64,000 nt of DNA from a virus. Under the pieces are notes generated by a model. It worked only from the letters and a program-made list of their open reading frames with translations. It was not told the DNA's origin and searched no databases. This document shows positions 26,607 to 44,436 of the stretch, piece by piece (the stretch's first letter is position 1; each line of letters opens with the position of its first letter). The stretch spans positions 32,001-96,000 of the IMG/VR virus record IMGVR_UViG_3300047558_000077. One strand, 5' to 3'. Both the position numbers and the translations under genes were made by a program.

Positions 26607-26970
26607 GAGAGACAAATGGGAGAAAGTGAGAAATCTGATTACAGCGGATATTTCTCATGCCGTTCATTATTCGTGCGATAAACTATACGAACATAACGTG
26701 GCGCTTCGGTATCTCCAATACATGGAAGCACTAGAGATAGAAGAAAACTGGCACAATGAATATATTAGATACATGGAAAAGGGTCTAGAATGAAACTTAT
26801 GAGAGTCTTAGACAAAACATTTAAGATTAATAAATCAATGCGACCCGAAATGATTTTAACAGTAGCATTTCCTTTGGAATATGCCAAAGATGAATCAGAA
26901 GTTATTTCTGGTGAAGAGTTTTTAAAACAGTTTAATGAAGCAATGGCAGAATACGAAAGAGAGAATGAAA

Positions 26971-28683
26971 ATGAAGTATCATTCACCGATTGATTCAACA
27001 CTATTTCTTCTCCGTGATGTTCTAGGTTTTGACAATGAACTAACGGAGCCGATTCTTACTGAGGCGGCCAAGTTGTGTGAAGAAGAAATCGCACCGACTA
27101 ATCAGATTGGTGATAAGGAAGGTTGTGTTAGAGTTCCTAAAGTAACCATTTTAAACGAAGATAAAACGATTAAAGAAACTCGTGAATCTTTCGTAAGAGT
27201 TCCAGAATGTTTCAAAGAACCATACAAAAAGTTTGCCGAAGGAGGTTGGCTTGGTCTATCAGTTCCTGAAGAGTATGGTGGACAAGGCCTACCATATACA
27301 CTTGCGGCTGCGGTCAACGAGTTTGTATCCTCGTCTAACATGGCTTTTAGTATGTTTCCTGGCCTTACTCGTGGAGCTATCCAAGCACTCTTAGCATCTG
27401 GTAATGATTTCCAGAAGCATGAGTATATACCTAGATTAGTATCTGGTGAATGGACTGGAACAATGTGTCTTACTGAACCACATTGCGGTACCGACCTTGG
27501 ACTGCTAAAGACAAAAGCGGTGCATGATTATGACGACTGGTATAAGATTACAGGTCAGAAAATCTTTATCTCTGGTGGTGACCACGATCTAACAGATAAT
27601 ATTCTTCATCTTGTTCTAGCAAGAGTTGAAGGTGATTCAGAAGGCGTCAAAGGTATTAGTCTGTTTGCTGTACCTAAAAATCTAGGAGAAAATAATAATG
27701 TCTCTTGCGGTTCTATTGAAGAAAAGATGGGCATTCATGGTTCACCAACATGCGTTATGAACTTTGATGGTGCTTATGGTATTCTAATCGGTGAACGCTG
27801 TAAGGGTCTCCAAGCAATGTTCGTTATGATGAACGAAGCAAGACTAGGTGTTGCTGTTCAAGGACTATCACAATCGGAGTTGGCTTATCAAAATGCTTTG
27901 GAATATGCTAAAGAAAGACTTCAAGGGACTAAACTTTCGAATCGATTGGGGGAGACTACTACTCGGAATCCGTGTAGTATTATACATCACCCTGACGTTC
28001 GCCGTATGCTACTTGATGTTAGGTCTATCAATGAGGCTGCTAGGCTTCTAATACTAGAAGCGGCGATGTTGGTTGATAAAGCCGACGAAGAATCACAAGA
28101 TCGCCTTGGTCTAATGACTCCTGTTCTAAAGGGTGTATTGACAGACTATGGTTTTGAAAATGCTGTAAAGATGCAACAGGTTTGGGGTGGCCATGGATAT
28201 GTTCGTGACAATGGTATGGAACAAATCGTAAGAGACGCCAGAATTGCCATGATCTATGAAGGTGCTAATGGTATTCAGGCACTTGATCTTGTTGGCCGTA
28301 AGTTGCCTAAGAACATGGGTCGTGCTATTACTAAGTTCTTCAAGGATAGTGAAAGTTTCTTGTCGGGTGCATATGATAAAGATATCAATCCAATCGTGCA
28401 GCCAATGACAAGAGCATTGAATGAACTAAAACAAGCAACAGAATGGTTGATGCATAATGCTATCAAGAATCCAAACAATGCTGGTTCGGCATCTTATGAT
28501 TATATGAAGATGATGGGACTTGTTATGCTTGGTATGGCACACATCAAGATTTGTCTAAAGACAAATGACAAGACACGCCATGACAATGCTACATATTTCA
28601 TGGAGCGTATTGTACCAGAGACAAGTTTTCTGTTGAAGCGTATCAAAGAAGGTTCTGATACTATGATGAAAGCGGAGTTTTGA
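26971..28683 (+). CDS. Acyl-CoA dehydrogenase (long, C-terminal-domain type)
   Basis: GTMCLTEPHCGTDLG, ITGQKIFIS, EKMGIHGSPTC, QVWGGHGY, RIAMIYEGANGIQALDL. Confidence 0.93.
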   Translation: MKYHSPIDSTLFLLRDVLGFDNELTEPILTEAAKLCEEEIAPTNQIGDKEGCVRVPKVTILNEDKTIKETRESFVRVPECFKEPYKKFAEGGWLGLSVPEEYGGQGLPYTLAAAVNEFVSSSNMAFSMFPGLTRGAIQALLASGNDFQKHEYIPRLVSGEWTGTMCLTEPHCGTDLGLLKTKAVHDYDDWYKITGQKIFISGGDHDLTDNILHLVLARVEGDSEGVKGISLFAVPKNLGENNNVSCGSIEEKMGIHGSPTCVMNFDGAYGILIGERCKGLQAMFVMMNEARLGVAVQGLSQSELAYQNALEYAKERLQGTKLSNRLGETTTRNPCSIIHHPDVRRMLLDVRSINEAARLLILEAAMLVDKADEESQDRLGLMTPVLKGVLTDYGFENAVKMQQVWGGHGYVRDNGMEQIVRDARIAMIYEGANGIQALDLVGRKLPKNMGRAITKFFKDSESFLSGAYDKDINPIVQPMTRALNELKQATEWLMHNAIKNPNNAGSASYDYMKMMGLVMLGMAHIKICLKTNDKTRHDNATYFMERIVPETSFLLKRIKEGSDTMMKAEF

Positions 28684-30704: not shown

Positions 30705-30712
30705 ATGTCAAC

Positions 30713-30773
30713 AGGGGTGCGACGCAATGTCGCACCCTTTTCTATTGACAACGGCAATATCCATTGATATAAT
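30713..30773 (+). promoter_or_regulatory. pmoC terminator hairpin that is also a GTGCGAC-N5-GTCGCAC palindrome, followed by a sigma70 promoter
   Basis: GGGTGCGAC-GCAAT-GTCGCACCC then TTTT; TTGACA 30745, 17 bp, TATAAT 30768. Confidence 0.7.
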
Positions 30774-30796
30774 GCAAAGACACTGGAGATTCCAAT

Positions 30797-31207
30797 ATGC
30801 CGTTGCTTCCCGCTTATTATACCACGACTAATCTTCGGAAGCGCAAGTCTAAAAAGACTAATACTTCCGAACATACTAAGTGGCTAGAGTCCATGGGTCT
30901 TACGCCCAAGCAGATAAAAAGTAAAAAGTCAAAGAATACTTCCTGGAAGTCTGACTATACTGCCTCTTTGCATGTCGACCGTTCCACAAAACATTACGAA
31001 AAATCTATTCAAGAGGTGTGTAACGCACCTGCTAATGCCACGGCTAATCGTTCCGTGATGGCTAATCTACATAAAGAGAACGAAGAAACTCGCAAGGCTA
31101 TTCTTGATAAAGCCAAGCGGGTCATGCCACTTTACAATAAGGGTGGACTCCAGGTTCTCTCTGAGTCTGATGATCTCAAAGCACTCAACAAAACTGTGAG
31201 GGTATAA
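30797..31207 (+). CDS. Basic hypothetical protein
   Basis: Good SD; C-terminal PLYNKGGLQ motif seen in T4-like phage hypotheticals. Confidence 0.6.
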   Translation: MPLLPAYYTTTNLRKRKSKKTNTSEHTKWLESMGLTPKQIKSKKSKNTSWKSDYTASLHVDRSTKHYEKSIQEVCNAPANATANRSVMANLHKENEETRKAILDKAKRVMPLYNKGGLQVLSESDDLKALNKTVRV

Positions 31208-32453
31208 TGGCATTAGAAGAACATGACTATATTGAATGGCATTTCAATATTCGTTATAGAGCCTGGTGGTATTTTCATATTCGCTGGCATGATGATTATG
31301 ATGCATGTGAAATCGAACCTGTAATCTATTGGGGTGCATGATGAGCAAGAAAGCAAGACGTAGACCTTCATGGAAAAAGTATATTGGCCCAAGATCGTTT
31401 TATATCGATCTAATCAATGAAGAAACAGGAGAACTATTTGAGAGGGTCATGGTTAAAGATGGCACCTTTCTTCGTGATATGCTAAAGAGAAATGGTCCTG
31501 TTGTTTTAGAAGAAAATCTAAGACAGGCATTTATAGACCTTGCGGAGAGGACACTAAATAATGACAGACAAGTCCAGATTGAAAGCAATAACTCAAAAGA
31601 TGTTTGAAGTGCATGACGAAACTTTTAAGCAGTTAGCAGAAAGCGAACGCAGAGATCGTAAGTTTAGATTGGAGATGGCAAATGAAATCTGGAGAAAAGT
31701 CAAAGGTATTGACATTCCCGAAGACTACTCGGAAGAGGATCGTTTGTCAATATACGAGCGTTACTACCACCGAGCCGTCTCCATGTCCCAAGGAGAGTAG
31801 AAGTTATTGGCCCACATTGCTAGGCGCATTCATTGGACTGTTATACATTTCTATTCTATTTGTATTATAAGGAAGAGTTATGGATCAAGATACTATTGTA
31901 GGCATCCAGAAGATGCGAGAACATAAACCCACAACTGTCTATGATCTTATGGACGAAAGAGATGCCTATAAACAGGCACTGTGGGATATCACAAAAGCAG
32001 CCACAGTAGGCGAAATGCTTGATATCGCCCATCGTGTATTGTCGGAGAATAAATCATGAAAGAGTTGGTTTTCGCTATCATTAGCATTTGTCTAAATACA
32101 GGTGAATGTGAAACCCATCAGATGAAAGTTGAGCCTCGTGTATGTCAGTTGAAGACAGTTCGTGCCCAGGTTCCAATGTCAGGTGAATGGAAAGACGCCA
32201 CCGTAAAGTTCAAGTGCTAAAAGGAGAATGTTATGAGTGATAAAGCAAAGGTTACTTTTGATGCTGTTAGTGAGGCATATTGCCTTCTATCAGCATATGT
32301 TCGTGAAGATGGTAAAGTCGGCACACGATACAATAAGGACCGAATACAGACTTTTGTTGTGTTTCTAGCAGAACTAATGAAACATGGTGATGTTGATTTG
32401 GCAAGAGTTGAGTTTGATAATCAGTTTTCTGAATATGATGGTTCTGGTTTATC

Positions 32454-32663
32454 ATGAAAGAGACGCACACCAGAACTCTGGTAAGAATGATTAGTTATCG
32501 AATAACCGCATGGGCATTCACCATTTTATGGACTTTTCTTCTTACAGGAGATATCGGCAAATCTACCGGTTTTGCCACACTGCTACATATTTTACTAAGT
32601 ATTGACTACTATATTCATGAAAGAGTATGGTTAAATATAAGATGGGGTCTAACGGAAAGGTGA
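32454..32663 (+). CDS. DUF2061-like small membrane protein
   Basis: ETHTRTLVRMISYR...YYIHERVWLNIRWG. Confidence 0.7.
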   Translation: MKETHTRTLVRMISYRITAWAFTILWTFLLTGDIGKSTGFATLLHILLSIDYYIHERVWLNIRWGLTER

Positions 32664-32912
32664 TTATAATGAGGAAGTTTTTGGTTCTATTCGCACTACT
32701 ATTCAGCACAGCAGCACTAGCAGATGCACCATATGGCACATATTACAATCCGGTTCAGGATCCACCGTTCACAGGTGATTGGTCTGTTCCAGTTCATCGT
32801 GGTATGTATTGTGTTCAGGGAACTTGGCATCGTGGATGGCTACGTCCTTGGGAAGGTTCTATCGTAATCAAGCCATCTTGTGGTACTGCGATCTATCAGA
32901 TTCAGTAACTCA

Positions 32913-33500
32913 ATGCTAGTCATCGATCATTTATTCTCAAAAGAAAATCAGGATTTGATTGAAACATCCGCCACAAGAATACCGTGGTTTTTTCAAGAGA
33001 ACACCTGCGACTTCTCATATATCAAAGGTTATCCTGAAACTATAGCTGGTGTAAAAGAAACACCGTTCTTTGTTAATATGATGGTCGATGACTTTAAAGT
33101 CCAATCAGATTACTATAAGTATTTTGCGCCGATTGTTGTGCATCTAGAAAAGCACACAGGTCGTTCATTTCGGAATAGATTGTTTCGTATGAAGGCCAAT
33201 ATGTATCTAAGACAACCCGACTATCCGGAAGGGTTCTTCCACACACCGCATGTGGATGTGTATGATGAAAAAACAGATACGACCGGTGAGGGTGAAATCT
33301 TTCTTTACTATGTTGATAAGAGTGACGGTCCGACATACATGTTCAATGAAAGATTTCCTACAAAAGATGTGACAAAGAGAGGAATGATATCACCGGAAAA
33401 AGGTAAAGGTGTTCTGTTCGATCTTCAAACACAACATGCTAGTTCTCCGCCTCGAATACATGAAAAACGGATCACGTTAAACTTCGTATTCACTAAATAA
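32913..33500 (+). CDS. 2OG-Fe(II) oxygenase-like protein
   Basis: PHVD, LYYVDKSDGPT, HASSPP, RITLNF; paralog of 49894-50502. Confidence 0.75.
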   Translation: MLVIDHLFSKENQDLIETSATRIPWFFQENTCDFSYIKGYPETIAGVKETPFFVNMMVDDFKVQSDYYKYFAPIVVHLEKHTGRSFRNRLFRMKANMYLRQPDYPEGFFHTPHVDVYDEKTDTTGEGEIFLYYVDKSDGPTYMFNERFPTKDVTKRGMISPEKGKGVLFDLQTQHASSPPRIHEKRITLNFVFTK

Positions 33501-33534
33501 GAGTGCCTAGCTAGGCATCTTAAAGGAGATTATT

Positions 33535-33762
33535 ATGTTCAAGAATCTAACAGTCAACTGGAAGACAACTGTTGCTGCCCTTATTCCACTAGTAGCATAC
33601 GGTCTAAAGTATGCTGGAGTTTGGCCAGAGAACATGCCACTTCCACCATTTGACGAAGTATGGCCATTTGTTCTAGGTCTTATTGGTGTCGGTGTTGCCG
33701 CTAAGGATAGCAACGTTACCAATTCAACAAATACAATCGAGCCACACAAGGTCGATCTATAA
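33535..33762 (+). CDS. Holin-like membrane protein
   Basis: NWKTT, two TM helices, AAKD; late promoter ACTAAATA at ~33492; convergent with the spanins. Confidence 0.6.
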   Translation: MFKNLTVNWKTTVAALIPLVAYGLKYAGVWPENMPLPPFDEVWPFVLGLIGVGVAAKDSNVTNSTNTIEPHKVDL

Positions 33763-33770
33763 TATGAACT

Positions 33771-33793
33771 GGGCGGATTTACTCCGCCCTTTT
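33771..33793. terminator. Terminator hairpin between convergent holin and spanin genes
   Basis: GGGCGGA-TTTAC-TCCGCCC followed by TTTT. Confidence 0.6.
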
Positions 33794-34060
33794 CACTTTC
33801 TTGTCAGCATCTTTTAGAAACTGACGAATTGACTCTATGGAACTTTTACATGTCAAATTGTTCTTATGTAGTTGAACAACCAACTTCGCAACCTGACTGT
33901 CCGTCAAAGTCTTCCAGTTCGGAAACTCTTTCACAACAGGACAATAATACATTGCCTCGTCAGGATGAACTACCATATGACGATATGACTTTATCACCTG
34001 CGACTGGTCATTACAAGAGGCCAGTAACAATACGCCTAACAATAGAATAATCTTTTTCAT
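33779..34060 (-). CDS. o-spanin (Rz1-like lipoprotein)
   Basis: Lipobox LLASC; overlaps the end of the i-spanin gene. Confidence 0.75.
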   Translation of the reverse strand: MKKIILLLGVLLLASCNDQSQVIKSYRHMVVHPDEAMYYCPVVKEFPNWKTLTDSQVAKLVVQLHKNNLTCKSSIESIRQFLKDADKKVKRAE

Positions 34061-34440
34061 TTCATTTCCTCTAAGGATCTGATTGTGTCTTTTAGTATCT
34101 GTGAGGATTCTCTATCACGACCAGCGCCAACATGCTTATCAATCTGTGAAACGACGGACTCTAACTTCTTTTCTAGTTGTCTATTCTTTTGGGTAAGACC
34201 ATTGATTGCTTCCGATCTTGCTCGATTGACGTTCTCGATTTCCTCGATGTAAGCATTCCGATCTTTTATTGTCTGTTCCAACTGTTTGATGTTGTATTGC
34301 TGGAGTGCCATTTGTTTTTCGTTATTGACAATCTCACGGTGTTTCATGTATAATCCGCCTGCCAGCCCTGCTACAATGACAAGAATGGAAAGCCACTTTA
34401 TGGAACCTGATGTAATGAGAGATAAAAGAATTGTAGGCAT
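34057..34440 (-). CDS. i-spanin (Rz-like)
   Basis: N-terminal TM helix plus long coiled coil; SD GGAGG. Confidence 0.75.
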   Translation of the reverse strand: MPTILLSLITSGSIKWLSILVIVAGLAGGLYMKHREIVNNEKQMALQQYNIKQLEQTIKDRNAYIEEIENVNRARSEAINGLTQKNRQLEKKLESVVSQIDKHVGAGRDRESSQILKDTIRSLEEMK

Positions 34441-34495
34441 CTTGACACCTCCGCACAGTATGCTATACTATATATCTATGTGAGAGGAAAGGTAA

Positions 34496-34693
34496 ATGAT
34501 CTTATGTTCCTGTAACACAATCTCTTCCAATACCGTAGAGCAAATCATGAATGAGCATCCGTTTGACGATGTTCCTTCAGTTCAAGAGATAATGGAGAAA
34601 CATGGTTGCTCTGTTGTCTGTGCCACTTGTGCCCATAACATCAAGATTGAAATAAGGAGACATTATGAAAATCAAAATCGGACCGTATGTTGA
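34496..34693 (+). CDS. bfd: Bacterioferritin-associated ferredoxin-like [2Fe-2S] protein
   Basis: MILCSCN...CATC (CxC-n-CxxC); own sigma70 promoter TTGACA 34442. Confidence 0.8.
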   Translation: MILCSCNTISSNTVEQIMNEHPFDDVPSVQEIMEKHGCSVVCATCAHNIKIEIRRHYENQNRTVC

Positions 34694-35204
34694 TTGGATC
34701 GGACCTTATCAGATTGCTGATAAGATTCCTTTTATTAGCGAAGATCGTGCTGAAAAGATTGGCGATTGGCTTGCTGATACTTGGGTAAACGATTTTTGTA
34801 ACTGGATTCAAGAAAAGAAAAAGCGTAAGATTGATATTCGTATTGATCGGTATGATACTTGGAGCATGGACCATACACTTGCTCTTATCATTGTTCCTAT
34901 GCTCAAGCAGTTGCGAGATACCAAGCACGGTTCTCCTCTTGTTGATAACGAGGATGTTCCGGAGCATATGCGATATAGCAGTCTTGGTCCTGATGATCCT
35001 GAGTGGTGGCCAGATAACTGGGTTCATTACAAGTGGGAATGGGTTCTAAACGAAATGATTTGGACCTTTGAACAACTTGCGGATGATGATGACAGAGGTG
35101 AACAACTGTTTATGCTTGACAGAGACAAGTATAATGAGTATAATGATCGTGTTAAGAACGGACTTCGCCTTTTCGGCAAGTATTATCGTGGACTATGGGA
35201 CTAA
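34665..35204 (+). CDS. Conserved phage hypothetical protein
   Basis: DTWSMDHTLALII...GLRLFGKYYRGLWD. Confidence 0.6.
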   Translation: MKIKIGPYVDWIGPYQIADKIPFISEDRAEKIGDWLADTWVNDFCNWIQEKKKRKIDIRIDRYDTWSMDHTLALIIVPMLKQLRDTKHGSPLVDNEDVPEHMRYSSLGPDDPEWWPDNWVHYKWEWVLNEMIWTFEQLADDDDRGEQLFMLDRDKYNEYNDRVKNGLRLFGKYYRGLWD

Positions 35205-35424
35205 GGAGAAAGACTATGATTCCATCTAGTGAAAGTGCAATGCATGTCCTTGAGACAGCATTCAAGCAGCGTGCCTTTGATGGCAAGTGGGAACGAATCG
35301 TCAAGATTATGGATCTTGATAACTCTTATTCATTCGTGAATGAGAATGGTAATCGCACTACTCTAATTCCGGAGAAGTGGGTAACGGTCGGTGTTTACGA
35401 CTATCTTATGGAGATTGCAGACTA

Positions 35425-35733
35425 ATGGCAAACAATGTAAAACTAATCAAGTTCCTCGGCGGTGAAGAGATTGTTGCTGAGGTTGTATCAGAAACAGATA
35501 ACACAATTGAAGTAAAGAATGCTGTTCGTATCGTTGTGATTCCCGACCAGCTAAATCCAAAGACACCGCAGGTCGGTCTTGCGCCGTATCTACAGTTTAG
35601 TGATACACGAGAACTAACATTCAATCGCAATCTAGTTGTCACAACTGCCGTGCCTCTTACTGACTTTCTAAATCAGTATAACAGCCTATTTGGCGGCATT
35701 CAGATTCCTAACTCAAAGATCATTACACCTTGA
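35425..35733 (+). CDS. Sm-like fold hypothetical protein
   Basis: VKLIKFLGGEEIVAEV; coupled to gp43. Confidence 0.55.
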   Translation: MANNVKLIKFLGGEEIVAEVVSETDNTIEVKNAVRIVVIPDQLNPKTPQVGLAPYLQFSDTRELTFNRNLVVTTAVPLTDFLNQYNSLFGGIQIPNSKIITP

Positions 35734-38285
35734 TGAATAAATTTTATACGAATGTTGAGATATGGGGCGGCAAAATCCTATATCGTGGTGTTGAAAACGG
35801 TGTCTGTGTTCGATACAAGGTAGATTACAACCCTACCTTGTTCGTACCTTCCGATAAGCCAACCAAATACACGACAATCTATGGTGAGTATGTTGGGCCT
35901 GTAAAGCCTGGCACCATCCGTGATTGTCGTAATTTTGTTAAGCAATATGATGGTGTTGACAACTTCAAGATTTATGGTAATCAACGTTATCAATATTGCT
36001 TTATTGCCGATGAGTTTGAGGGAACCGTCGATTGGGATATTTCAAAGATTAAAATTGCTAACATCGATATCGAAGTCGGTGAACCTGACGGTGGTGGATT
36101 TCCTGAGCCAGATAAGGCCGACGGTGCGATAACTGCCATTACAATCAAGATGAACGGCTATTTCACCACTTTTGGTTGTGGTGAATATGAGAACACACGT
36201 TCTGATGTGAGATATTTTAAATGTATGGATGAGTTCGATCTCATTCGTAAGTTTCTAGGTTGGTGGCAAAGTGAGTATCCTGATATCATTACTGGATGGA
36301 ATGTCGAAGTCTTCGATATTCCTTATCTTATCAATCGTATCGTAAAACTACTAGGTGAGAGTGAAGCAAAGAAGTTGTCACCATGGAATGTTATTAACAC
36401 CAAGGTTCTGGAAATTGGTGTGAATCGTCGTGGTCAAGGATATTCTATTTTAGGTGTTGCCACACTAGATTTACTTTCACTATATAGAAGATACGCTCCT
36501 GATGGAAAATCACAAGAGTCTTATAAATTGGACAACATCGCTCATGTTGAGTTGGGCGAACGCAAACTGTCCTACGAAGAATATGGTTCTCTACACAATC
36601 TTTACAAAGAGGACTATCAAAAGTTCATCGATTATAACATCAAAGACGTTGATCTAGTTGATCGTATCGATGATAAAGGTAAGTTTATTGAACTAGCACT
36701 AACTCTATCTTATGATAACAAGTGCAACTACGAGGACGTGTTCGCACAGGTCCGCATGTGGGACGTTATTTGTTTTCACCATTTGAAATCAAAGAACATA
36801 GTTGTCCCTCCTATTGAGAAACACGAGAAGGAGGCTGCCTATGTTGGCGCATACGTTAAAGATCCTATTATTGGCTTCCATGATTGCGTGGTTAGTTTCG
36901 ACGTTAATTCAGAGTATCCGTCTGTTATTATGGGGTCCAATATCTCTCCTGAGACGATTGTTGAACCTGATTCTTATAGCGATGCTATGCGGGCTATTGT
37001 TGCCTCTGGTGTCAGTGTTGATAAACTTCTCAATCGTTCCATTGATACATCATGCCTAAAGGCAGACAATGTTTGTTTGACTGCTAACGGTCAGTTCTAT
37101 CGCCGTGATAAGCAAGGCTTCATGCCTGAAATGGTCGAGAAGATGTTCGCCGATCGTAAGGTATATAAGAAGAAGATGCTTGAGGCGCAAGCAGAGTATG
37201 AGACAGAGACCGATTCCGATAAGAGAGCGGAACTAAAAAACAAGATTGCGAGATATAACAATCTACAACTCTCTAAGAAAGTATCGCTAAACTCCTTATA
37301 TGGTGCTATGGGTTCAAAGTATTTTAGATTCTTTGACCTTCGTAATGCCACTGCCGTCACGACTACGGGTCAACTTAGCATTCGTTGGATCGAAAACGAT
37401 ATCAATAAGTATCTAAACAAACTATTGAAAACGGAGAAAGATTATGTTATTGCGGTCGATACTGACTCGGTGTATCTCAATCTTGCAGAGGTGGTTAGGA
37501 AAACTTTTAGCACACAGAATGTCGATCCAATTCGTGGAATCTCATTCATGGACAAGGTCTGCGAAACTGCTATTCAGCCAGTTATTGATAAGTCTTGCAA
37601 CCTACTTGGGGATTATACTAATGTCTATCAACAAAAGATTGTCATGAAGCGAGAGGTCTTGGCAGATAAAGCAATCTGGACTGCCAAGAAGCGTTACATT
37701 CTAAACGTCCATAACTCCGAAGGCGTGCAATACGCTAAGCCTAAGAAGAAAGTTATGGGCCTTGAAATGATCAAGAGTTCCACACCTACAGCATGTAGAG
37801 ACAAACTAAGAGAGGTTGTTGATGTTATCTTTGATGAAGACGAGGCGGCTGTCCAGTCTTTTATTCAAACTTTCCGTGGTGAATTTCAAAATCTTCCTCT
37901 GGCAGATATTGCTTTTCCTCGGGGAGTTAATGGTCTTGATAAATATAGTGATTCGAAATCTATATATGCATCCGGTTGTCCTATCCATGTTCGTGGTTCT
38001 CTCGTATATAATCATCTTTTACACATTCATAATCTTACTTCTAAGTATCCACTAATCCTGTCGGGTGAAAAGATCAAGTTCATTCATCTGAAAGAACCTA
38101 ATACAGTTCAATCAAACATCATAGCTTTTCCACAAGGTAATATACCGAAAGAATTTGACTTGCATAAGTATATAGATTATAATCTACAGTTTCAAAAGGC
38201 ATTTCTAGATCCACTTATCATCATTCTTGGTGCTATTGGCTGGAAGCCAGAACGAAGCGCAAGTTTGGAGGACTTCTTCTCATGA
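35733..38285 (+). CDS. gp43: Family B DNA polymerase
   Basis: DIEV exonuclease motif, SFDVNSEYPS, KVSLNSLYG, DTDS, KKRY. Confidence 0.97.
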   Translation: MNKFYTNVEIWGGKILYRGVENGVCVRYKVDYNPTLFVPSDKPTKYTTIYGEYVGPVKPGTIRDCRNFVKQYDGVDNFKIYGNQRYQYCFIADEFEGTVDWDISKIKIANIDIEVGEPDGGGFPEPDKADGAITAITIKMNGYFTTFGCGEYENTRSDVRYFKCMDEFDLIRKFLGWWQSEYPDIITGWNVEVFDIPYLINRIVKLLGESEAKKLSPWNVINTKVLEIGVNRRGQGYSILGVATLDLLSLYRRYAPDGKSQESYKLDNIAHVELGERKLSYEEYGSLHNLYKEDYQKFIDYNIKDVDLVDRIDDKGKFIELALTLSYDNKCNYEDVFAQVRMWDVICFHHLKSKNIVVPPIEKHEKEAAYVGAYVKDPIIGFHDCVVSFDVNSEYPSVIMGSNISPETIVEPDSYSDAMRAIVASGVSVDKLLNRSIDTSCLKADNVCLTANGQFYRRDKQGFMPEMVEKMFADRKVYKKKMLEAQAEYETETDSDKRAELKNKIARYNNLQLSKKVSLNSLYGAMGSKYFRFFDLRNATAVTTTGQLSIRWIENDINKYLNKLLKTEKDYVIAVDTDSVYLNLAEVVRKTFSTQNVDPIRGISFMDKVCETAIQPVIDKSCNLLGDYTNVYQQKIVMKREVLADKAIWTAKKRYILNVHNSEGVQYAKPKKKVMGLEMIKSSTPTACRDKLREVVDVIFDEDEAAVQSFIQTFRGEFQNLPLADIAFPRGVNGLDKYSDSKSIYASGCPIHVRGSLVYNHLLHIHNLTSKYPLILSGEKIKFIHLKEPNTVQSNIIAFPQGNIPKEFDLHKYIDYNLQFQKAFLDPLIIILGAIGWKPERSASLEDFFS

Positions 38286-39862
38286 GTAAACCAATTAATA
38301 AAATAGTTATCGTCGGAGGTGGTTCTGCTGGTTGGATGACAGCGGCCACGCTCATTCAAAGATTAGATAATCGTGAGATTGTTCTAATTGAAGATCCTAA
38401 TACGCCTACAGTCGGCGTCGGTGAATCCACACTTGGGTTTATCAATGAATGGATGCGTCTACTCGGCATTAAAGACACAGACTTTATGAGAGAGTGTAAT
38501 GCGACTTATAAGATGTCTATTAGCTTCACAGACTTTTATAAGAAGGGTTCAGGAACCTTTCATTATCCCTTTGGCGGTGTTGATATCACAGGAAACACAT
38601 ATGCAAAGAATGACTGGTATCTAAAGAAATTTCTGCATCCAGAAACACCAATCTCCGACTATGCGGATAATGTATATCCTATCATGTCATTGGTGAACGC
38701 TAATAGAATGACAAGTGAATCGATTTTACCTGGTTACAATTTTCACAATGATGTTGCGTTTCATTTTGATGCTGCCAAGTTTGGTGTTTGGTTGCGTGAG
38801 AAGTATGCTATTCCAAGGGGTGTTAAGTATATTCAAGGTAAAGTCAGACACATTCCAGTAAACGAAGACGGTGTAGAAAAACTAATACTTGATAGTGGTG
38901 AAGAGATCACCGCCGATTTGTATATCGATTGCACAGGTTTTAGATCAATCATTCTCGGTGAAGCGTTGCATGAACCTTTCATCTCATATCATGACATTCT
39001 ACCTAACAATTCTGCCTGGGCCGCACAAGTACCATACATTGATAAAAAGAAACAGATTGTTCCTTGGACTGATTGTCATGCAATAGAAAACGGCTGGGTA
39101 TGGAGTATTCCATTGTGGAGCCGTATGGGTATGGGCTATGTGTATTCTGACAGATACATCGATGATGCAGGTGCCTTGCAAGAGTTCAAGGATCATCTAA
39201 ACAAATATGGAATGTTAAAAGAAGATCAACATTTTCATAACATCAAATTTAGAGCCGGTATTCATAATCGTATTTGGGTGAAGAATGTTGCAGCTATTGG
39301 TTTGTCAGCGGGCTTTATCGAACCTCTAGAAAGCAATGGATTGTTTAGTGTTCATATGTTTCTTGTTAGATTGCTTCGTGCAATCGATAGAGACAAAGAT
39401 GAACATCTTGTTTCAGAATATGATCGCAATAGTTACAACTGGTCATGTCGAACAATGTTTGATGGCTTTTCACAGTTTGTTGCGTTGCATTATGCCCTAT
39501 CACACAGAACCGATACAGAGTATTGGAAAGATGTTGGTAGAAGAGACTATTGTGATGTTGATAAGTCGCTTCAAAGAGGAGTATCTAGAAACGAGTCATT
39601 CATTTCAGCTTTTGATTATAAGTATAACACTACACGATTTGGTGATGATGGCTTGAATGCTATTGCAACAGGACTAAATTACTTCTCAACAGATATGCAT
39701 TTTATCCATGCAATGAATGCATCAAATGTGAATCTTGCCGAGGAGTTTGATGTTATAACCAAACGACTAAACGCAAAGAAAGAGCTATGGGATTATATAG
39801 CTTCAAAATGTCCAACTACATACGATTTTTTAAAAGAAAGGATCTATCATGGCGAAGACTAA
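38282..39862 (+). CDS. Flavin-dependent (tryptophan-halogenase-like) halogenase
   Basis: GGGSAG, GVGEST, ATYK catalytic Lys, WVWSIP, FIEPLES. Confidence 0.88.
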   Translation: MSKPINKIVIVGGGSAGWMTAATLIQRLDNREIVLIEDPNTPTVGVGESTLGFINEWMRLLGIKDTDFMRECNATYKMSISFTDFYKKGSGTFHYPFGGVDITGNTYAKNDWYLKKFLHPETPISDYADNVYPIMSLVNANRMTSESILPGYNFHNDVAFHFDAAKFGVWLREKYAIPRGVKYIQGKVRHIPVNEDGVEKLILDSGEEITADLYIDCTGFRSIILGEALHEPFISYHDILPNNSAWAAQVPYIDKKKQIVPWTDCHAIENGWVWSIPLWSRMGMGYVYSDRYIDDAGALQEFKDHLNKYGMLKEDQHFHNIKFRAGIHNRIWVKNVAAIGLSAGFIEPLESNGLFSVHMFLVRLLRAIDRDKDEHLVSEYDRNSYNWSCRTMFDGFSQFVALHYALSHRTDTEYWKDVGRRDYCDVDKSLQRGVSRNESFISAFDYKYNTTRFGDDGLNAIATGLNYFSTDMHFIHAMNASNVNLAEEFDVITKRLNAKKELWDYIASKCPTTYDFLKERIYHGED

Positions 39863-40077
39863 AAAAGACGATCACCATAAACACTCACCTGCTCGTCTTT
39901 ATGAATTTGCGCCTAAAGACGGAATAACTCCGAACAATATTGTTGAACTAGCAAAGATTGTTCGAGTAGGTGTTGGTGGTGACCTATTTGAAAAACTATC
40001 ACCAGAATTACAAAAGCACTTCAAAGAAGTTGCCTAACGAGATTGTTAGGTGACTACTGACAAAAAAGGAGATTCTT

Positions 40078-41145
40078 ATGTCAGACATTTTCAATAAACT
40101 ATTAGCAGAAACAAATAACGAATACGCAGGCATCGTGGACGATGGTGTAGCGGCAGGCGATGTGTCAGGTTTCATTGGCACAGGATCATATGCTATGAAT
40201 GCTTTGCTTTCAGGTTCAATCTATGGAGGTCTACCGCAGAACAAGGTTACAGCATTTGCCGGTGAGCCTTCTGTTGGTAAGACCTTTTATGCGTTGAATG
40301 TGGTGAAACAGTTTCTAGAAGATAATGCAGATGGCTTTGTATTTTACTTTGAGTCAGAGTCCGCTATTTCCAAGCAGTTCATTACTGATCGTGGCATTGA
40401 CGCAAGGCGTGTTGGCATTGTTCCTGTGGCTACGGTGCAGGAGTTTAGAACGCAAGCGGTAAAGATCCTAGATAGATATCTAGAAGGCAAAGATAAGCCA
40501 CCGATGTTGTTTGTTCTCGATTCTCTTGGCAATCTTTCTACAGATAAAGAAATGCAAGACATTGCCGATGGTAAAGACACAAGAGACATGACACGAGCCC
40601 AGTTGGTTCGTGGTGCCTTTCGTGTTCTTACATTGAAACTTGGTAAGGCTAAAGTTCCACTAATCGTCACCAATCACGTTTATGACGTTGTTGGTGCATA
40701 TGTTCCAATGAAGAAGATGGGTGGTGGTTCTGGTCTAGAGTATGCTGCATCAACAATCATCTTCCTATCAAAGAAGAAAGACAAGACACTAGACGACGAT
40801 AACGGTCGCACCGGTGCCGTAATCACCGCACATCTCAAGAAGTCTCGTATGACTATTGAAGATAAGAAGGTTGAGACATGGCTAAATTATACATCAGGAC
40901 TTGATAGATATTATGGTTTGCTAGATTTGGCAGAACGATATGGTATCGTCAATAAGGTATCAACTCGATATGAGTTTCCTGATGGACGTAAAGCATTTGA
41001 AAAAGAAATCAAAAAGAACCCAGAAAAGTTCTTTACAAAAGAGATTTTAGATGCTATAAATGAAGGGTGTCAATCAGACTTCATGTATGGAAAGTATAAT
41101 GAAACGGAAGAGGTTGAGGAGGTAGAAGATGGAAGCGGCGACTGA
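40078..41145 (+). CDS. uvsX: RecA-like recombinase
   Basis: [28 protein letters not shown]. Confidence 0.95.
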
Positions 41146-41500
41146 TTACGTTTTTAGAGATGACTTGTTTGATGCCAAAGAAGCCGGCTCAACAGTTCCT
41201 ATTGAGCTAAAGATTGAACCGTTTGTTGGTGTCGTATATCGATATACAACAGTTACTTTCAAGGTGGGCGAGGATGATATTCCTCGCCTACAATATGATT
41301 ACGAGATTATCAAAACAAATGATTTGTCTATGGTGACTTTACGAAAGAACCAAAAGTTCAATCACACCTTAGGACTTATACTAAATGCTATGTTGCTAGA
41401 TTTGGGAGATGCTGAAACGAATGAGATTGGAACAAATAATCCTCAAGAATCTGATACAGAAGGAAGACTTCACGAGGAAGGTTCTTCCATTCCTTCGTGA
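41129..41500 (+). CDS. gp40-like head vertex assembly chaperone
   Basis: Position between uvsX and gp41; [15 protein letters not shown]. Confidence 0.55.
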
Positions 41501-42800
41501 GGATTATTTCTCTAATCAGGAAGATCGGCTGCTTTTCAAAGAAGTTGCCGACTTCATCCTCAAGTATAATCAGCAACCAACCTTTGATGCTCTTTCTATT
41601 GAGATTGATAACATTCGTGGTGGTACCGATGATACCATCAAGAGTATTCAGGAAACTCTCAAAGAACTAAAGAAAGATGAGGAGTCAACAAACGAGCAAT
41701 GGCTTGTTGATTCCACAGAAAAGTTCTGTCAAGAGAAAGCAATCTATAACGCTATCACACAATCATTGGAGATTATGAATGGACGAGGGAAACTCTCTAA
41801 GGGCGCTATACCTTCTCTGTTGTCTGATGCTTTGGCTATATCTTTTGATCCGAATGTTGGTCACGATTATCTAGAACAAACGAATGAACGATATGAGCAT
41901 TATCACCGTGTTGAAGAACGCCTTAGATTTGACCTTGATTTCTTTAACAAGATTACAAAGAATGGAGTTCCGAGAAAAACTCTTAATGTCGTTATGGGTG
42001 GTGTCGGTGGTGGTAAATCTCTTACTCTTTGTCATTTTTCTTCTAGTTATCTTACCATGGGCAAGAATGTTCTTTATATCACACTAGAACTAGCCGAAGA
42101 AGAAGTTGCCAAGCGTATTGATGCTAATCTAATGAACATTACGTTTGATGATCTAATGGCTTTGCCGAAAGATTTGTATGATAAGAAGATTGCCAATCTA
42201 AAGCAGAAGACAAATGGTAAACTTATCATCAAAGAGTATGCCACTGCAACAGCATCAACTATTCATTTTCGTTCCCTGTTAAACGAACTAAACCTCAAGA
42301 AAGGATTCGTACCAGATGTTATCATGGTCGACTATCTCAATATTTGTGCGTCATCCCGTATCAAGCCTGGTAATGGTGTTAATAGTTATACCTACGTTAA
42401 AGCGATTGCCGAAGAACTTCGAGGTCTAGCAGTCGAGTTCAATGTGCCAATCTGGTCAGCAACACAGTTGACCCGAAGTGGTTACACATCTACCGATCCA
42501 GGCATGGAAGATACATCTGAGTCCTTTGGTCTACCAGCAACGGCAGACTTCTTCGTGGCGCTTGTCGTAACGGAACAACTCTCACAGTTGAACCAGATTA
42601 TGGTAAAGCAGTTGAAGAACCGATACAACGATCCAGGAATCAACAAAAGATTTGTTATTGGTGTTGACAAAGCACGAATGAAGTTGTATGATGTTGAATC
42701 ATCGGCACAGGACTTGGCTGATTCAGGACAGGAAGAAGTTGCTCCAAAGCCAACATTCAACAAATCTAATACTAACAAGTTCAAGGGCTTAAAAGTATGA
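41421..42800 (+). CDS. gp41: Replicative DNA helicase
   Basis: GGVGGGKS, ITLE, VDYLNI, SATQLTR, SESFGLPATAD, KQLKNRY. Confidence 0.96.
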   Translation: MRLEQIILKNLIQKEDFTRKVLPFLREDYFSNQEDRLLFKEVADFILKYNQQPTFDALSIEIDNIRGGTDDTIKSIQETLKELKKDEESTNEQWLVDSTEKFCQEKAIYNAITQSLEIMNGRGKLSKGAIPSLLSDALAISFDPNVGHDYLEQTNERYEHYHRVEERLRFDLDFFNKITKNGVPRKTLNVVMGGVGGGKSLTLCHFSSSYLTMGKNVLYITLELAEEEVAKRIDANLMNITFDDLMALPKDLYDKKIANLKQKTNGKLIIKEYATATASTIHFRSLLNELNLKKGFVPDVIMVDYLNICASSRIKPGNGVNSYTYVKAIAEELRGLAVEFNVPIWSATQLTRSGYTSTDPGMEDTSESFGLPATADFFVALVVTEQLSQLNQIMVKQLKNRYNDPGINKRFVIGVDKARMKLYDVESSAQDLADSGQEEVAPKPTFNKSNTNKFKGLKV

Positions 42801-43041
42801 AAAAACTCTATACATATTATCCTGAGTTCAATAATAACGACGAACTTCTTTGGCTTGTGTTTGAGGAATCAACCAACAGTGTAGTCGCCGAGTTTTTCTT
42901 TGAAGATGACGCACAGGAATACGCTACCTTTCTAGACAACGGTGGTGGCTTTGCAGGATTCACTCCAAGATTTATCTTGACAAAGGTACCGAAACCAGAT
43001 ATAAATGAGGCATTCTTAGCAGAGTTTGCGGAATAGTTCCG

Positions 43042-43100
43042 AAAAAAGATAAAAAAATTCAAAAAAAGTGCTTGACATTCCGTTCCGGTGCCTATATACT
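43042..43100 (+). promoter_or_regulatory. Strong stable-RNA promoter with phased A-tracts
   Basis: A6/A7/A7 tracts ~10 bp apart, TTGACA 43072, 17 bp, TATACT 43095. Confidence 0.75.
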
Positions 43101-43118
43101 ACTTAGACAATAAAGATT

Positions 43119-43195
43119 GGTTCCATAGCTCAACAGGATAGAGCAACCGCCTTCTAAGCGGTAGGTTGAAGGTTCGAATCCTTCTGGGACCGCCA
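43119..43195 (+). tRNA. tRNA-Arg(TCT)
   Basis: Cloverleaf, CCA. Confidence 0.95.
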
Positions 43196-43200
43196 TTTAT

Positions 43201-43291
43201 GGGGGTGGGTGTAAGACACAAGAGGGACTTATAAACCCTTTAGCGGCCGATTACCGTTCTCGACCAGGAGCGTTACCTGGCACCCCTACCA
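43201..43291 (+). tRNA. Atypical tRNA-Ile(TAT)-like gene
   Basis: 7-bp acceptor plus ACCA, 3-nt D-loop, CTTATAA loop, long extra arm, T-loop AGCGTTA. Confidence 0.6.
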
Positions 43292-43306
43292 ACTTTGGAG
43301 TATGAC

Positions 43307-43453
43307 ATGGAAAACTTTGAACTGCTCTATCAGTGTTATCTATCTGGTCAAATGTCTGAAATGCAGTGGCAACTACATTTGAAGTGTGACGAAGGCCTAC
43401 AAGATTGGTATAAATGTAAACAGACTGCCTACTCTATAGAAGCGATAGAATAA
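43307..43453 (+). CDS. 48-aa hypothetical protein
   Basis: GGAG SD; MENFELLYQCYLSGQ... Confidence 0.5.
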   Translation: MENFELLYQCYLSGQMSEMQWQLHLKCDEGLQDWYKCKQTAYSIEAIE

Positions 43454-43455
43454 GG

Positions 43456-43750
43456 GTGCGTCATTCTATCGCAGTTTTTTGTGGTTGACTTCTGAATCCG
43501 TTTGGACTATATTACGTGAACGGTGGGACGAAACAGAGAGACAGGAACACGGTGCGACAACCTGACGCACTTTTTTCTGAAAAAAGTTCTTGACTTCCTG
43601 TTTTTGATGCTATATAGTATGCGAACGATGAAACGAAAGAGGGAAACAGGAAATCAGAGTGCGACGGAATGTCTCACTTTTTCCTAAAAAAAAGTTCTTG
43701 ACTTCCTGTTTGAGTCGTGTATAATACTCAAACGATGAAACAAGGAGACA
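43456..43750 (+). repeat. Three tandem ~100-bp units: palindrome + T-run + TTGACT promoter + short purine-rich transcript
   Basis: Units start 43456, 43552, 43659; -35 at 43485, 43590, 43698. Confidence 0.8.
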
Positions 43751-43754
43751 CGGA

Positions 43755-43940
43755 ATGAAAGATGAAGCCGTGAAACGAGACTATTTCTGGGTGGTAGAAG
43801 TTACCGATCATAATGGTCGTGTAAACTATCGCAAGGAATATCATAATAAAGATGGTTCGGCATTTCGTGATTATGCTCGGTTGAAAACGCAGGGTACCGT
43901 TTGTATCCAGCGTAAGTTCAAAGAGTATAAGATTGCCTAA
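43755..43940 (+). CDS. Small hypothetical protein
   Basis: AAGGAG SD, driven by the third promoter of the array. Confidence 0.6.
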   Translation: MKDEAVKRDYFWVVEVTDHNGRVNYRKEYHNKDGSAFRDYARLKTQGTVCIQRKFKEYKIA

Positions 43941-44360: not shown

Positions 44361-44436
44361 GGCCGTGTAGGTTTCTGGGGAAACCACTTGTCTGTCTAAC
44401 AAGTTTAGGTGGGTTCGATCCCCATCACGGTCGCCA
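44361..44436 (+). tRNA. tRNA-Asp(GTC)
   Basis: Cloverleaf, G73, CCA. Confidence 0.9.

What the first reader, a model, noticed from the sequence alone, without database searches (positions are those of the whole stretch)
30717..43725. Helically phased RegR/RegA-box-like palindromes upstream of four phage promoters: possible coupling to host redox state
Seen: GTGCGAC-GCAAT-GTCGCAC (30717), GTGCGTC-ATTCT-ATCGCAG (43456), GTGCGAC-AACCT-GACGCAC (43552) and GTGCGAC-GGAAT-GTCTCAC (43659). All have a 5-bp spacer, and the deviations are non-compensatory, which suggests a protein site rather than only an RNA stem. They start 28, 29, 38 and 39 bp before TTGAC, two classes one helical turn apart (centres near -54 and -64). 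A weaker GCGAC-N5-GTC lies before pmoC (29845). Known: alphaproteobacterial RegR/RegA/PrrA/ActR bind GCGRC-N5-GNCGC-type boxes, at about -64 in the Bradyrhizobium fixR-nifA promoter. Inference: the phage recruits the host redox regulator to drive the tRNA operon and post-pmoC genes, tying transcription to O2/electron flow.
Basis: partly seen in the sequence, partly recalled or inferred. Interest (0 to 1): 0.8.

Follow-up and report, generated by a model that had tools for sequence, protein, structure and literature searches.

The report
Phage terminator-promoter cassettes with invariant palindrome
The four palindromes are real, but they are most likely the stem-loop halves of repeated terminator-plus-promoter cassettes ("PeSLs") already known from T4-like phages; their stem sequence is unusually invariant and fits the host RegR/ActR box, so protein binding is not excluded but is unsupported.

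Summary
All four palindromes and their 28/29/38/39-bp distances to TTGAC are as reported. Each sits just after a stop codon or short transcript, is followed by a T-run, and precedes a near-consensus sigma70-type promoter. The three sites at 43456-43725 are a ~105-nt tandem triplication. At 43456 the stable hairpin is a different 10-bp stem, and 29845 is not a member.

The phage is a 172-kb T4-like genome whose pmoC is Methylocystis-like. It carries 8 such modules, and relatives carry 5-9. Modules sit at the joints where relatives gain, lose or swap small genes. This is the PeSL design (Arbiol 2010, Comeau 2014).

In 63 distinct sites the palindrome arms are the best-conserved part of the module, with no compensatory change, and most sites lack a direct T-run. 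A sequence-specific factor is therefore plausible.

- For RegR: two window sites match the RegR box exactly, and Methylocystis encodes ActR/ActS.
- Against RegR: the promoters need no activator, the host genome is not enriched for the motif, spacing is not phased in the wider family, and other pmoC phages lack it.

Odds: PeSL cassette about 0.6, unknown operator about 0.2, RegR about 0.1. The scan had already noted this genome's other four modules, and PeSL-like cassettes on other DNA.

The parts
30706..30714 (+). TGTCAACAG word upstream of the palindrome. It is the 5' arm of the outer inverted repeat seen in full in the modules outside the window.
30713..30744 (+). Stem-loop GGGGTGCGAC-GCAAT-GTCGCACCC (palindrome 30717-30735) plus TTTTCTA. 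It starts 9 nt after the pmoC stop (30704). Strong intrinsic-terminator form.
   Evidence: (-19.9 kcal/mol, z -5.4)
30745..30773 (+). Promoter TTGACA-N17-TATAAT (12/12, TG extended -10) for ORF 30797-31207.
43442..43480 (+). Hairpin GCGATAGAAT/ATTCTATCGC plus AGTTTTTT, overlapping the stop of ORF 43295-43453. It contains the degenerate palindrome copy at 43456-43474.
   Evidence: I10; -11.5 kcal/mol
43485..43513 (+). Promoter P1, TTGACT-N17-TATATT. It starts a ~57-nt purine-rich transcript that ends at the next stem-loop.
43552..43589 (+). Palindrome GTGCGAC-AACCT-GACGCAC (one A-A mismatch), then TTTTTT, then the A-tract AAAAAAGTTC in the UP-element position.
   Evidence: -7.7 kcal/mol
43590..43618 (+). 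Promoter P2, TTGACT-N17-TATAGT. It starts a second ~58-nt transcript.
43659..43697 (+). Palindrome GTGCGAC-GGAAT-GTCTCAC (one C-U mismatch), then TTTTT, then the A-tract AAAAAAAAGTTC.
   Evidence: -8.3 kcal/mol
43698..43725 (+). Promoter P3, TTGACT-N16-TATAAT. Its leader carries AAGGAG and the ATG of ORF 43755-43940, and the tRNA array follows.
43456..43760 (+). Tandem triplication (~105-107 nt period) of the whole module: stem-loop, T-run, A-tract, promoter and leader. Relatives have 2 copies (G002) or 1 copy (G001).

Best explanation
The palindromes are the stem-loop component of PeSL-type (promoter-early stem-loop) regulatory cassettes of an uncultured T4-like phage that probably infects Methylocystis.

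Each cassette of about 100-120 bp has, in order:
- a GC-rich stem-loop, GTGCGAC(A)-N3-(T)GTCGCAC;
- a short linker, which is a T-run, a T-run plus A-tract, or the conserved word GTTKACAWACGATTTC;
- a near-consensus sigma70-type promoter;
- a conserved leader with a Shine-Dalgarno sequence and the ATG.

Inferred mechanism:
- In RNA, the stem-loop with its U-tract ends or attenuates transcription coming from the upstream gene (pmoC, ORF 43295-43453, or the preceding cassette) and protects the 3' end.
- The promoter then restarts transcription of the next small gene or of the tRNA array. Each block is thereby insulated.
- Because about 100 bp of the cassette are alike in all copies, the copies recombine. 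This gives the tandem triplication in the window and the gain, loss and swapping of small genes between relatives.

Shown here: the anatomy, the copy family, the conservation pattern, and the position of cassettes at gene-content breakpoints. Inferred: termination, promoter activity, and recombination as the cause of the rearrangements. The unusual invariance of the stem sequence suggests an additional, unidentified sequence-specific partner.
For: - Hairpin plus T-run lies directly after stop codons at all four window sites.
- nhmmer finds exactly 8 modules in the genome, with E-values from 1e-21 to 1e-32. All are on the coding strand and align from stem-loop to ATG.
- Promoters score 10-12 of 12, and the top-scoring promoter matches (at least 11/12) are 35 on the + strand against 2 on the - strand.
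- Relatives carry the same modules: 5-9 per genome, 63 distinct sites.
- In four genomes the modules sit at syntenic joints while the genes between them differ. G002 and G003 each have an extra [cassette + ORFan]. The gene after the third cassette is replaced. RtcB is present or absent.
- The tandem copy number is 3, 2 or 1 among relatives.
- Downstream of pmoC, more distant phages have unrelated GC-rich hairpins plus T-runs, so a terminator is what that position requires.
- Median hairpin energy over the 63 sites is -12.4 kcal/mol.
- The PeSL definition, and its tested promoter and terminator activity, are given in PMC2839356 and PMC4122927.
Against: - Only 15 of 63 family sites have a T-run directly after the palindrome.
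- Two window hairpins are weak, at -7.7 and -8.3 kcal/mol.
- There is no compensatory change in 58 non-consensus pairs, and the arms are better conserved than the -35 hexamer. Selection for pairing alone does not predict this.
- The distance to the -35 stays at 28-30 or 38-39 bp across three unrelated linker types.
- The outer stem covaries only weakly: 11.3 against 11.0 of 16 pairs, permutation p = 0.003.
- There are no transcript data.
Confidence: 0.6

Rival explanations
1. The palindrome is an operator for an unidentified sequence-specific dimeric protein. It could be phage-encoded or a host factor other than RegR. The protein would bind double-stranded DNA, or the extruded or transcribed hairpin, to shut off or tune the early promoters, or to target cassette recombination. 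Any terminator activity would be secondary.
For: - The arms are nearly invariant: eight of the 14 arm positions are identical in at least 62 of 63 sites, six of them in all 63. They carry more information than the -35 or -10 hexamers.
- 0 of 58 deviant pairs are compensated.
- The same 19-mer recurs in HTVC023P-like podovirus contigs, sometimes as two or three tandem copies without T-runs, and in Pelagibacter phage HTVC008M.
- Arbiol et al. themselves speculated that a protein binds the conserved PeSL stem.
Against: - No candidate protein was found. The phage has no HTH_8 protein.
- The only HTH next to a module is the sigma70-r4-like tail of a split GIY-YIG endonuclease.
- Left and right arms do not vary symmetrically: R7 varies in 25 of 63 sites against L1 in 3 of 63.
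- A stem of only 8 independent bases can recur by chance among the many phage hairpins in IMG/VR, and 72 of 113 outside hits are a single orthologous site.
Confidence: 0.2
2. One reading: the host ActR/RegR/RegA-type redox response regulator binds the palindromes, centred near -55 or -65, and activates the phage promoters according to redox state.
For: - Shuffles give 0-1.
- 61 of 63 sites are within 1 mismatch of the PrrA motif, and 44 of 63 fit the RegA motif. The motifs are taken from PMC5506826.
- pmoC is 85-92% identical to Methylocystis/Methylosinus pmoC.
- M. parvus has an ActR equivalog (316 bits against a cut-off of 250) next to ActS.
- RegR half-sites TGCGAC, TGCGTC and TGCGGC are listed for B. 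japonicum promoters.
Against: - Near-consensus -35 and -10 hexamers, often with TGn, need no activator.
- T-runs follow all four window sites.
- The motif occurs 9-22 times per Methylocystis genome against 20-47 for the control, and the one hit conserved in all five genomes is a tRNA anticodon arm.
- Known RegA/PrrA sites are degenerate and ChIP-seq gave no strong motif (PMC4263372). Here even positions outside or free in the RegR box are invariant.
- Most family loops (AWCCT) do not carry the RTT of the RegR box.
- Wider-family spacings of 28 and 33 bp lie on opposite helix faces.
- Two other pmoC phages, Sinorhizobium phiM12, a roseophage and five of six cultured SAR11 phages lack the motif.
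Confidence: 0.1
3. The hairpin is an RNA-level recognition or processing signal, such as a nuclease site or a binding site for an RNA-binding protein in the polycistronic early and tRNA transcripts, rather than a terminator.
For: - Orientation relative to transcription is fixed, and the loop has a strand-specific consensus, AWCCT.
- Flanking bases extend the stem (GG/CC).
- The element sits at the start of the tRNA array.
Against: - There is no Rfam match.
- Stem mismatches are frequent.
- No cognate protein is known.
- The same modules precede ordinary protein genes.
Confidence: 0.05

Closest known systems
PeSLs (promoter-early stem-loops) of T4-type phages RB49/phi1, T4/PST and KVP40/nt-1 (Arbiol et al. 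2010, PMC2839356; Comeau et al. 2014, PMC4122927)
   Same: - Composite of about 100 bp: a stem-loop just upstream of a sigma70-like early promoter, with an A/T-rich stretch before the -35 in some copies, ending in SD and ATG.
- Many copies per genome with a lineage-specific stem consensus.
- Concentrated in hyperplastic regions in front of small ORFans.
- Relatives differ by insertion, deletion or replacement of genes at the cassettes.
- Tandem or degraded copies occur.
   Different: - The stem here is a specific 7-8-bp palindrome, not a G-run/C-run, and is the most invariant part of the cassette.
- Most copies lack a direct T-run. They carry a conserved GTTKACAWACGATTTC linker instead, and in some copies an outer inverted repeat that makes a three-way junction.
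- The presumed host is an alphaproteobacterial methanotroph.
- Terminator activity, promoter activity and mini-circle formation are untested.
Rho-independent (intrinsic) terminators
   Same: GC-rich hairpin followed at once by a T-run, placed right after a stop codon. This holds for all four window sites, and 30713-30744 is a textbook case.
   Different: - One stem sequence is shared by many sites and genomes.
- Mismatched, weak stems occur at 43552 and 43659.
- 48 of 63 family members have no adjacent T-run.
RegR/RegA/PrrA/ActR boxes of Alphaproteobacteria (motifs as compiled in PMC5506826; RegR sites in PMC4064962)
   Same: Geometry GCGNC-N5-GNCGC, with half-sites TGCGAC/TGCGTC, placed 55-65 bp upstream of the transcription start. 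The host genus has the regulator.
   Different: - Known boxes are degenerate, variably spaced and imperfect, and they serve activator-dependent promoters.
- The boxes here are near-invariant, followed by T-runs, and sit before consensus promoters.
- The host genome shows no enrichment, and no binding data exist.
Stoperators of cluster A mycobacteriophages and global operators of plasmids such as KorB OB sites on RK2 (from my own knowledge, not checked here)
   Same: One short conserved site repeated many times across a mobile genome, near gene ends and promoters, in a fixed relation to transcription.
   Different: For those systems the binding protein is known and is encoded by the element itself. 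Here no such protein was identified.

Membership tests
PeSL cassette | Stem-loop located just upstream of a sigma70-like early promoter | tested here: met
   All 8 genome copies and 63 distinct sites in relatives. The -35 starts 28-30 or 38-39 bp after the palindrome start.
PeSL cassette | [quoted passage not shown] | tested here: inconclusive
   AAAAAAGTTC is present in the copies at 43552 and 43659 and in their orthologues. Other copies have a T-run only, or the GTTKACAWACGATTTC linker.
PeSL cassette | Cassette ends with a Shine-Dalgarno sequence and the start codon of the downstream gene | tested here: met
   Conserved leader ...ATGATGAAAGGAACAAA-ATG, or AAGGAG...ATG. Two window copies (P1, P2) run into the next stem-loop instead of a gene.
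PeSL cassette | Repeated within the genome, with about 100 bp of conservation and a lineage-specific stem consensus | tested here: met
   nhmmer: 8 copies, E 1e-21 to 1e-32. Other terminators of the genome have unrelated stems. Two other pmoC phages lack the stem.
PeSL cassette | Lies in hyperplastic regions and at indel or replacement breakpoints between close relatives | tested here: met
   Synteny of G000 to G003 shows extra [cassette + ORFan] units, gene replacement after a cassette, and RtcB present or absent. Tandem copies number 3, 2 or 1. Breakpoints were not mapped to the base.
PeSL cassette | Measured promoter and terminator activity; mini-circle formation | not testable with these tools
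   Needs reporter fusions and inverse PCR on infected cells, and the phage is uncultured.
Intrinsic terminator | Stable GC-rich hairpin immediately followed by a U-tract | tested here: met
   All four window sites have the form. Energies are -18.7 to -19.9 kcal/mol (30713), -11.5 (43442 stem), -7.7 and -8.3. In the family as a whole only 15 of 63 sites have it.
RegR/RegA/PrrA box | Fits the published consensus | tested here: met
   RegR box: exact at 30717 and 43659. Over the 63 sites, 7 are exact and 32 have one mismatch. PrrA: 61 of 63 within one mismatch. RegA: 44 of 63 exact. All three motifs carry little information.
RegR/RegA/PrrA box | Host encodes the regulator | tested here: met
   M. 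parvus: NF033791 at 316 bits (cut-off 250), next to NF033792 ActS at 391 bits. The host assignment rests only on pmoC identity.
RegR/RegA/PrrA box | Target promoters depend on an activator | tested here: not met
   The hexamers score 10-12 of 12, the spacer is 16-17 bp, and TGn is frequent before the -10.
RegR/RegA/PrrA box | The same motif is used in the host genome | tested here: inconclusive
   There are 9-22 hits per Methylocystis genome against 20-47 for the control. One conserved hit is a tRNA arm. One intergenic hit lies next to a TTGACT in M. rosea. No regulon data exist.
RegR/RegA/PrrA box | Bound by the phosphorylated regulator | not testable with these tools
   Needs EMSA or footprinting.

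The most novel reading that the evidence does not exclude
The invariant palindrome GTGCGACA-N3-TGTCGCAC is a true protein operator and not just a terminator stem. It would be read either by the host ActR/RegA-type redox regulator, whose box it fits, or by an unknown phage factor. It would be shared by T4-like methanotroph phages, the SAR11 myophage HTVC008M and HTVC023P-like podoviruses, so that aquatic phages of Alphaproteobacteria would wire early-gene cassettes, including those around pmoC and the tRNA array, to one common regulator.
Probability: 0.12. Interest if true: 0.75.

Novelty: new member of a known kind. Interest (0 to 1): 0.38.

Why it matters
If the ordinary reading holds, these elements mark the insulated, self-promoted gene cassettes of an uncultured methanotroph phage. 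One of them sits directly behind the auxiliary pmoC gene. They also mark the joints at which this phage clade trades small genes, which helps annotation and helps trace how auxiliary genes such as pmoC and rtcB move. The unusual point is a stem that is more conserved than the promoter hexamers, never compensates, fits the host redox-regulator box, and recurs in unrelated aquatic phages. That gives a concrete, cheap test with one oligonucleotide and one purified regulator. The test would settle whether PeSL stems are protein targets, a question the PeSL authors left open in 2010.

Tried and rejected
- Rfam at gathering thresholds on the window and on the second module region found only tRNAs.
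- A blastn search of the 'phages' collection with the pmoC region found no match.
- I asked whether the outer inverted repeat TGTMAAC.../...GTTKACA is a general covarying stem. Only a subset of copies has it, and the excess over cross-pairs is small. I did not build a covariance model.
- Searching host genomes for the motif as a regulon signature gave no enrichment. The hit conserved in all five genomes is a tRNA anticodon arm. One intergenic M. rosea hit was looked at but has no known link to redox genes.
- I looked for a phage-encoded RegA-like HTH and found none.
- I looked for a candidate binding protein shared by all palindrome-bearing contigs. The only proteins shared between the T4-like phage and the HTVC023P-like contigs are a DUF6321 protein, a GP88-like protein and one other. 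None is an evident DNA binder.
- The stem-loop with the -35 in its loop, seen behind pmoC in other phages, is not a repeat family there. It occurs once per genome.
- I tried to read Emmerich 2000 (PMC113139), Lindemann 2007 (PMC2168637) and Eraso & Kaplan 2009 (PMC2698480) for the experimentally critical bases. They are not held, so the motifs are cited second-hand from PMC5506826.
- I rejected a tRNA-like reading of the three-way junction, because it has no T-loop or D-arm features.
- I rejected a divergent promoter at the TGTCAA words, because no -10 follows.


Full report
**1. What is in the sequence**

The four palindromes are exactly as reported. Their starts lie 28, 29, 38 and 39 bp before TTGACA or TTGACT hexamers. 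Those hexamers belong to promoter matches scoring 10-12 of 12.

Each is followed at once by a T-run: CCTTTTCT, AGTTTTTTG, CTTTTTTCTG and CTTTTTCC. Each also lies directly behind the end of a transcription unit:
- 30717 starts 13 nt after the pmoC stop. pmoC matches Pfam AmoC at E = 3e-106.
- 43456 starts 3 nt after the stop of ORF 43295-43453.
- 43552 and 43659 lie about 40 nt downstream of the preceding promoter.

Folding gives the following:
- A textbook terminator at 30713-30739: 11 pairs, -19.9 kcal/mol, z = -5.4.
- A different 10-bp stem at the second site, 43442-43472 (-11.5 kcal/mol). The reported palindrome is only a degenerate passenger of this stem.
- Two weak, mismatched hairpins at 43552 and 43659 (-7.7 and -8.3 kcal/mol).

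The three sites at 43456-43725 are a tandem triplication, with a 105-107-nt period, of one unit. The unit runs stem-loop, T-run, A-tract, TTGACT-N16/17-TATAxT, then a purine-rich leader. They are therefore not independent observations. The weak GCGAC-N5-GTC at 29845 is not part of the family.

**2. The family**

The window is bases 32001-96000 of a 172,364-bp virus record with 40.8% GC. It has T4-type replication genes and at least 24 tRNAs.

The genome holds 8 palindrome sites against 2 for the reversed control. A profile built from stem-loop to ATG finds exactly these 8 modules, with E-values from 1e-21 to 1e-32, all on the coding strand.

The four copies outside the window start at genome positions 112444, 113076, 115908 and 117333. 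Here the palindrome is followed by the conserved linker cTGTTKACAwACGATTTC rather than a T-run. Three of them also have an outer inverted repeat (TGTCAACAG ... CTGTTGACA) and a second small hairpin. At 112444 these fold into a three-way junction of -36.6 kcal/mol that ends in TTTTTT.

Other good terminators of the genome use unrelated stems.

**3. Relatives**

pmoC retrieved more than 80 related viral contigs. Three long relatives carry 6, 9 and 5 palindromes against 0 control. Two others with equally Methylocystis-like pmoC carry none. Behind pmoC, those other phages have unrelated GC-rich hairpins plus T-runs, some with the -35 inside the loop. So that position calls for a terminator, not for this particular sequence.

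A scan with the linker word and one with the palindrome itself brought the total to 63 distinct, oriented sites. Their properties:
- The distance to the -35 is 28-30 bp in 7 sites and 38-39 bp in 56. Many sites were retrieved through the 20-nt linker, which fixes the 39.
- Eight of the 14 arm positions are identical in at least 62 of 63 sites, six of them in all 63.
- Variation is concentrated at L6/R2 (A/T) and at the outermost pair.
- Of 58 non-consensus pairs, none is compensated. 13 are G-U on the coding strand, 7 would be G-U only on the other strand, and 38 are plain mismatches.
- Information content per position falls in this order: arms 1.76 bits, -35 1.64, -10 1.30, loop 1.18, linker 0.92, promoter spacer 0.81, leader 0.52, upstream region 0.30.
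- Only 15 of 63 sites have a T-run directly after the palindrome.
- The outer stem is real in a subset, where GGTAT pairs with ATACC and AATCGTAT with ATACGATT. It is not general.

**4. What the modules do in genome evolution**

In the hyperplastic region the modules sit at syntenic joints in four genomes, while the genes between them differ:
- G002 has an extra [module + 78-aa ORFan].
- G003 has an extra [module + 59-aa ORFan].
- The GP88-like gene behind the third module of this phage is replaced by an unrelated 77-82-aa gene in the other three.
- RtcB is missing in G003.

The module before the tRNA array is present 3, 2 or 1 times in different relatives. The first module heads a GIY-YIG endonuclease followed by a sigma70-region-4-like HTH ORF.

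This matches the PeSL description:
- a composite of about 100 bp, made of a stem-loop, an AT-rich stretch, a sigma70-like early promoter, and SD plus ATG;
- a lineage-specific stem consensus;
- location in hyperplastic regions;
- association with indels;
- degraded or slipped copies.

In RB49 the stem-loops were shown to be effective terminators.

**5. The RegR idea**

The resemblance is real.
- With the published motifs (PMC5506826), the RegR box has two exact matches in the whole genome.
- 61 of 63 sites are within one mismatch of the PrrA motif, and 44 of 63 fit the degenerate RegA motif.
- pmoC is 85-92% identical to Methylocystis/Methylosinus genes.
- M. parvus has an ActR/ActS pair above the NCBIfam equivalog cut-offs.

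Several results speak against it.
- The promoters are near consensus, often with TGn, so they need no activator.
- In five Methylocystis genomes, TGCGAC-N5-GTCGCA with up to 1 mismatch is rarer than its reversed control (9-22 against 20-47). The hit conserved in all five is a tRNA anticodon arm.
[quoted passage not shown] Here even positions that the RegR box leaves free or does not cover are invariant.
- In the wider set of exact palindromes followed by strong promoters, the distances are 28 (7 contexts), 33 (4), 37, 41 and 57 (2) bp. There is no common helical face.
- The extra 10 bp of the window's 38/39 class is simply an A-tract in the UP-element position.
- The phage encodes no HTH_8 protein.

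**6. An unexpected extension**

- About 20 stretches are T4-like relatives.
- 72 of 113 loci are one orthologous site about 236 nt upstream of terL in podoviruses with about 35% GC. Their TerL is 69% identical to that of Pelagibacter phage HTVC027P.
- In those podoviruses the palindrome sits beside a second conserved hairpin (GGGTGGGACCCGCCCAC) and CTGCGAC...GTCGCAG variants, sometimes two or three in tandem without T-runs.

Among cultured phages:
- HTVC008M, a T4-like phage of SAR11, has two one-mismatch sites. One spans a promoter. The other overlaps a stop codon and is followed by a T-run and a promoter.
- The motif is absent from HTVC023P, 027P, 010P, 011P, 019P, 023Pt_psg01, a roseophage, Sinorhizobium phiM12 and three cyanophages.
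- T4 has one near-match, probably by chance.

A palindrome specifies only 8 independent bases, so some recurrence among the very many phage hairpins is expected by chance. The patchy distribution also does not follow host class. I therefore treat this extension as unexplained, not as support for a host factor.

**7. Verdict**

The best-supported reading is a PeSL-type terminator-promoter cassette family in a new T4-like clade (confidence 0.6). The window's four sites are its clearest terminator-type members.

The invariance of the stem and the lack of compensation are not explained by pairing alone. They keep open an unidentified sequence-specific partner (0.2), of which host ActR/RegR is one candidate (0.1). 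An RNA-level recognition or processing signal is a further rival (0.05).

Nothing shows coupling to redox state.

Earlier notes of this scan had already listed the four modules outside the window, including their RegA-type box and branched repeat. They had also recorded PeSL-like cassettes in many other phage genomes. I found the modules independently before reading those notes.

Noticed in passing
window 43520-43577 and 43625-43683: Promoters P1 and P2 of the triplicated cassette run straight into the next stem-loop and T-run. They should therefore make two purine-rich RNAs of about 57 nt that resemble the SD-containing leader of ORF 43755-43940. The number of such units is 3, 2 or 1 in relatives. 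They could be small RNAs or just slippage products.
   Followed up: partly
window 44361-44433: Rfam calls a tRNA here (45.5 bits) that ARAGORN did not list.
   Followed up: no
G000 112550-113109 (L005:4550-5109), outside the window: A GIY-YIG catalytic domain ORF (106 aa) is directly followed by a 79-aa ORF with a sigma70 region-4-type HTH. This is probably a split, or two-piece, homing endonuclease. Its ATG lies 6 nt after the -10 box, so the mRNA may be leaderless.
   Followed up: partly
L379:4050-5400, L384:6600-6750 and about 70 other IMG/VR loci: HTVC023P-like podovirus contigs (about 35% GC) carry the same GTGCGACA-N3-TGTCGCAC palindrome about 236 nt upstream of terL. It sits with a second conserved hairpin (GGGTGGGACCCGCCCAC), CTGCGAC...GTCGCAG variants, and sometimes tandem arrays. 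The function is unknown; a packaging, origin or regulatory role is possible.
   Followed up: partly
Pelagibacter phage HTVC008M, NC_020484: 30078-30094 and 135440-135456: There are two one-mismatch copies of the palindrome. One lies across a TTGACT-N16-CAGAAT promoter in a divergent intergenic region. The other overlaps a stop codon and is followed by a T-run and a promoter.
   Followed up: partly
L306:1876-1906 (Methylocystis rosea G008:C1:2854876): An intergenic GCGCGAC-ATCCT-GTCGCAT, with the commonest phage loop, lies 25 bp before a TTGACT. It sits between an ABC-transporter gene and a small membrane ORF and is conserved in M. silviterrae. It could be a real host site or a coincidence.
   Followed up: partly
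G000 15397-15645 (outside the window) and L379:10551-10871: A DUF6321 protein is 69% identical between this T4-like phage and HTVC023P-like podovirus contigs. This hints at gene flow between the two phage groups.
   Followed up: no
L021-L058 (pmoC phages), just after pmoC: In many other pmoC phages the terminator hairpin behind pmoC carries the -35 hexamer TTGACT inside its loop (for example GAGGGGGAGGTATTGACTTCCCCCTC), with the -10 just after the stem. This is a very compact terminator/promoter overlap. It occurs once per genome.
   Followed up: partly
window 26935-28683 and 38282-39862: The phage encodes an acyl-CoA dehydrogenase-like protein (582 aa) just upstream of the pmoC block. It also encodes a tryptophan-halogenase-family flavoprotein (526 aa) between the DNA polymerase and the RecA/UvsX-like gene. 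Both are unusual auxiliary genes.
   Followed up: no
family-wide; for example G000 112515-112543 and window 43072-43100: The 17-bp promoter spacer is itself conserved (cTTCCGTTCCnnTGTGC) in many modules, and also in a promoter that has no palindrome (43072). A sigma70 promoter does not normally require this.
   Followed up: no
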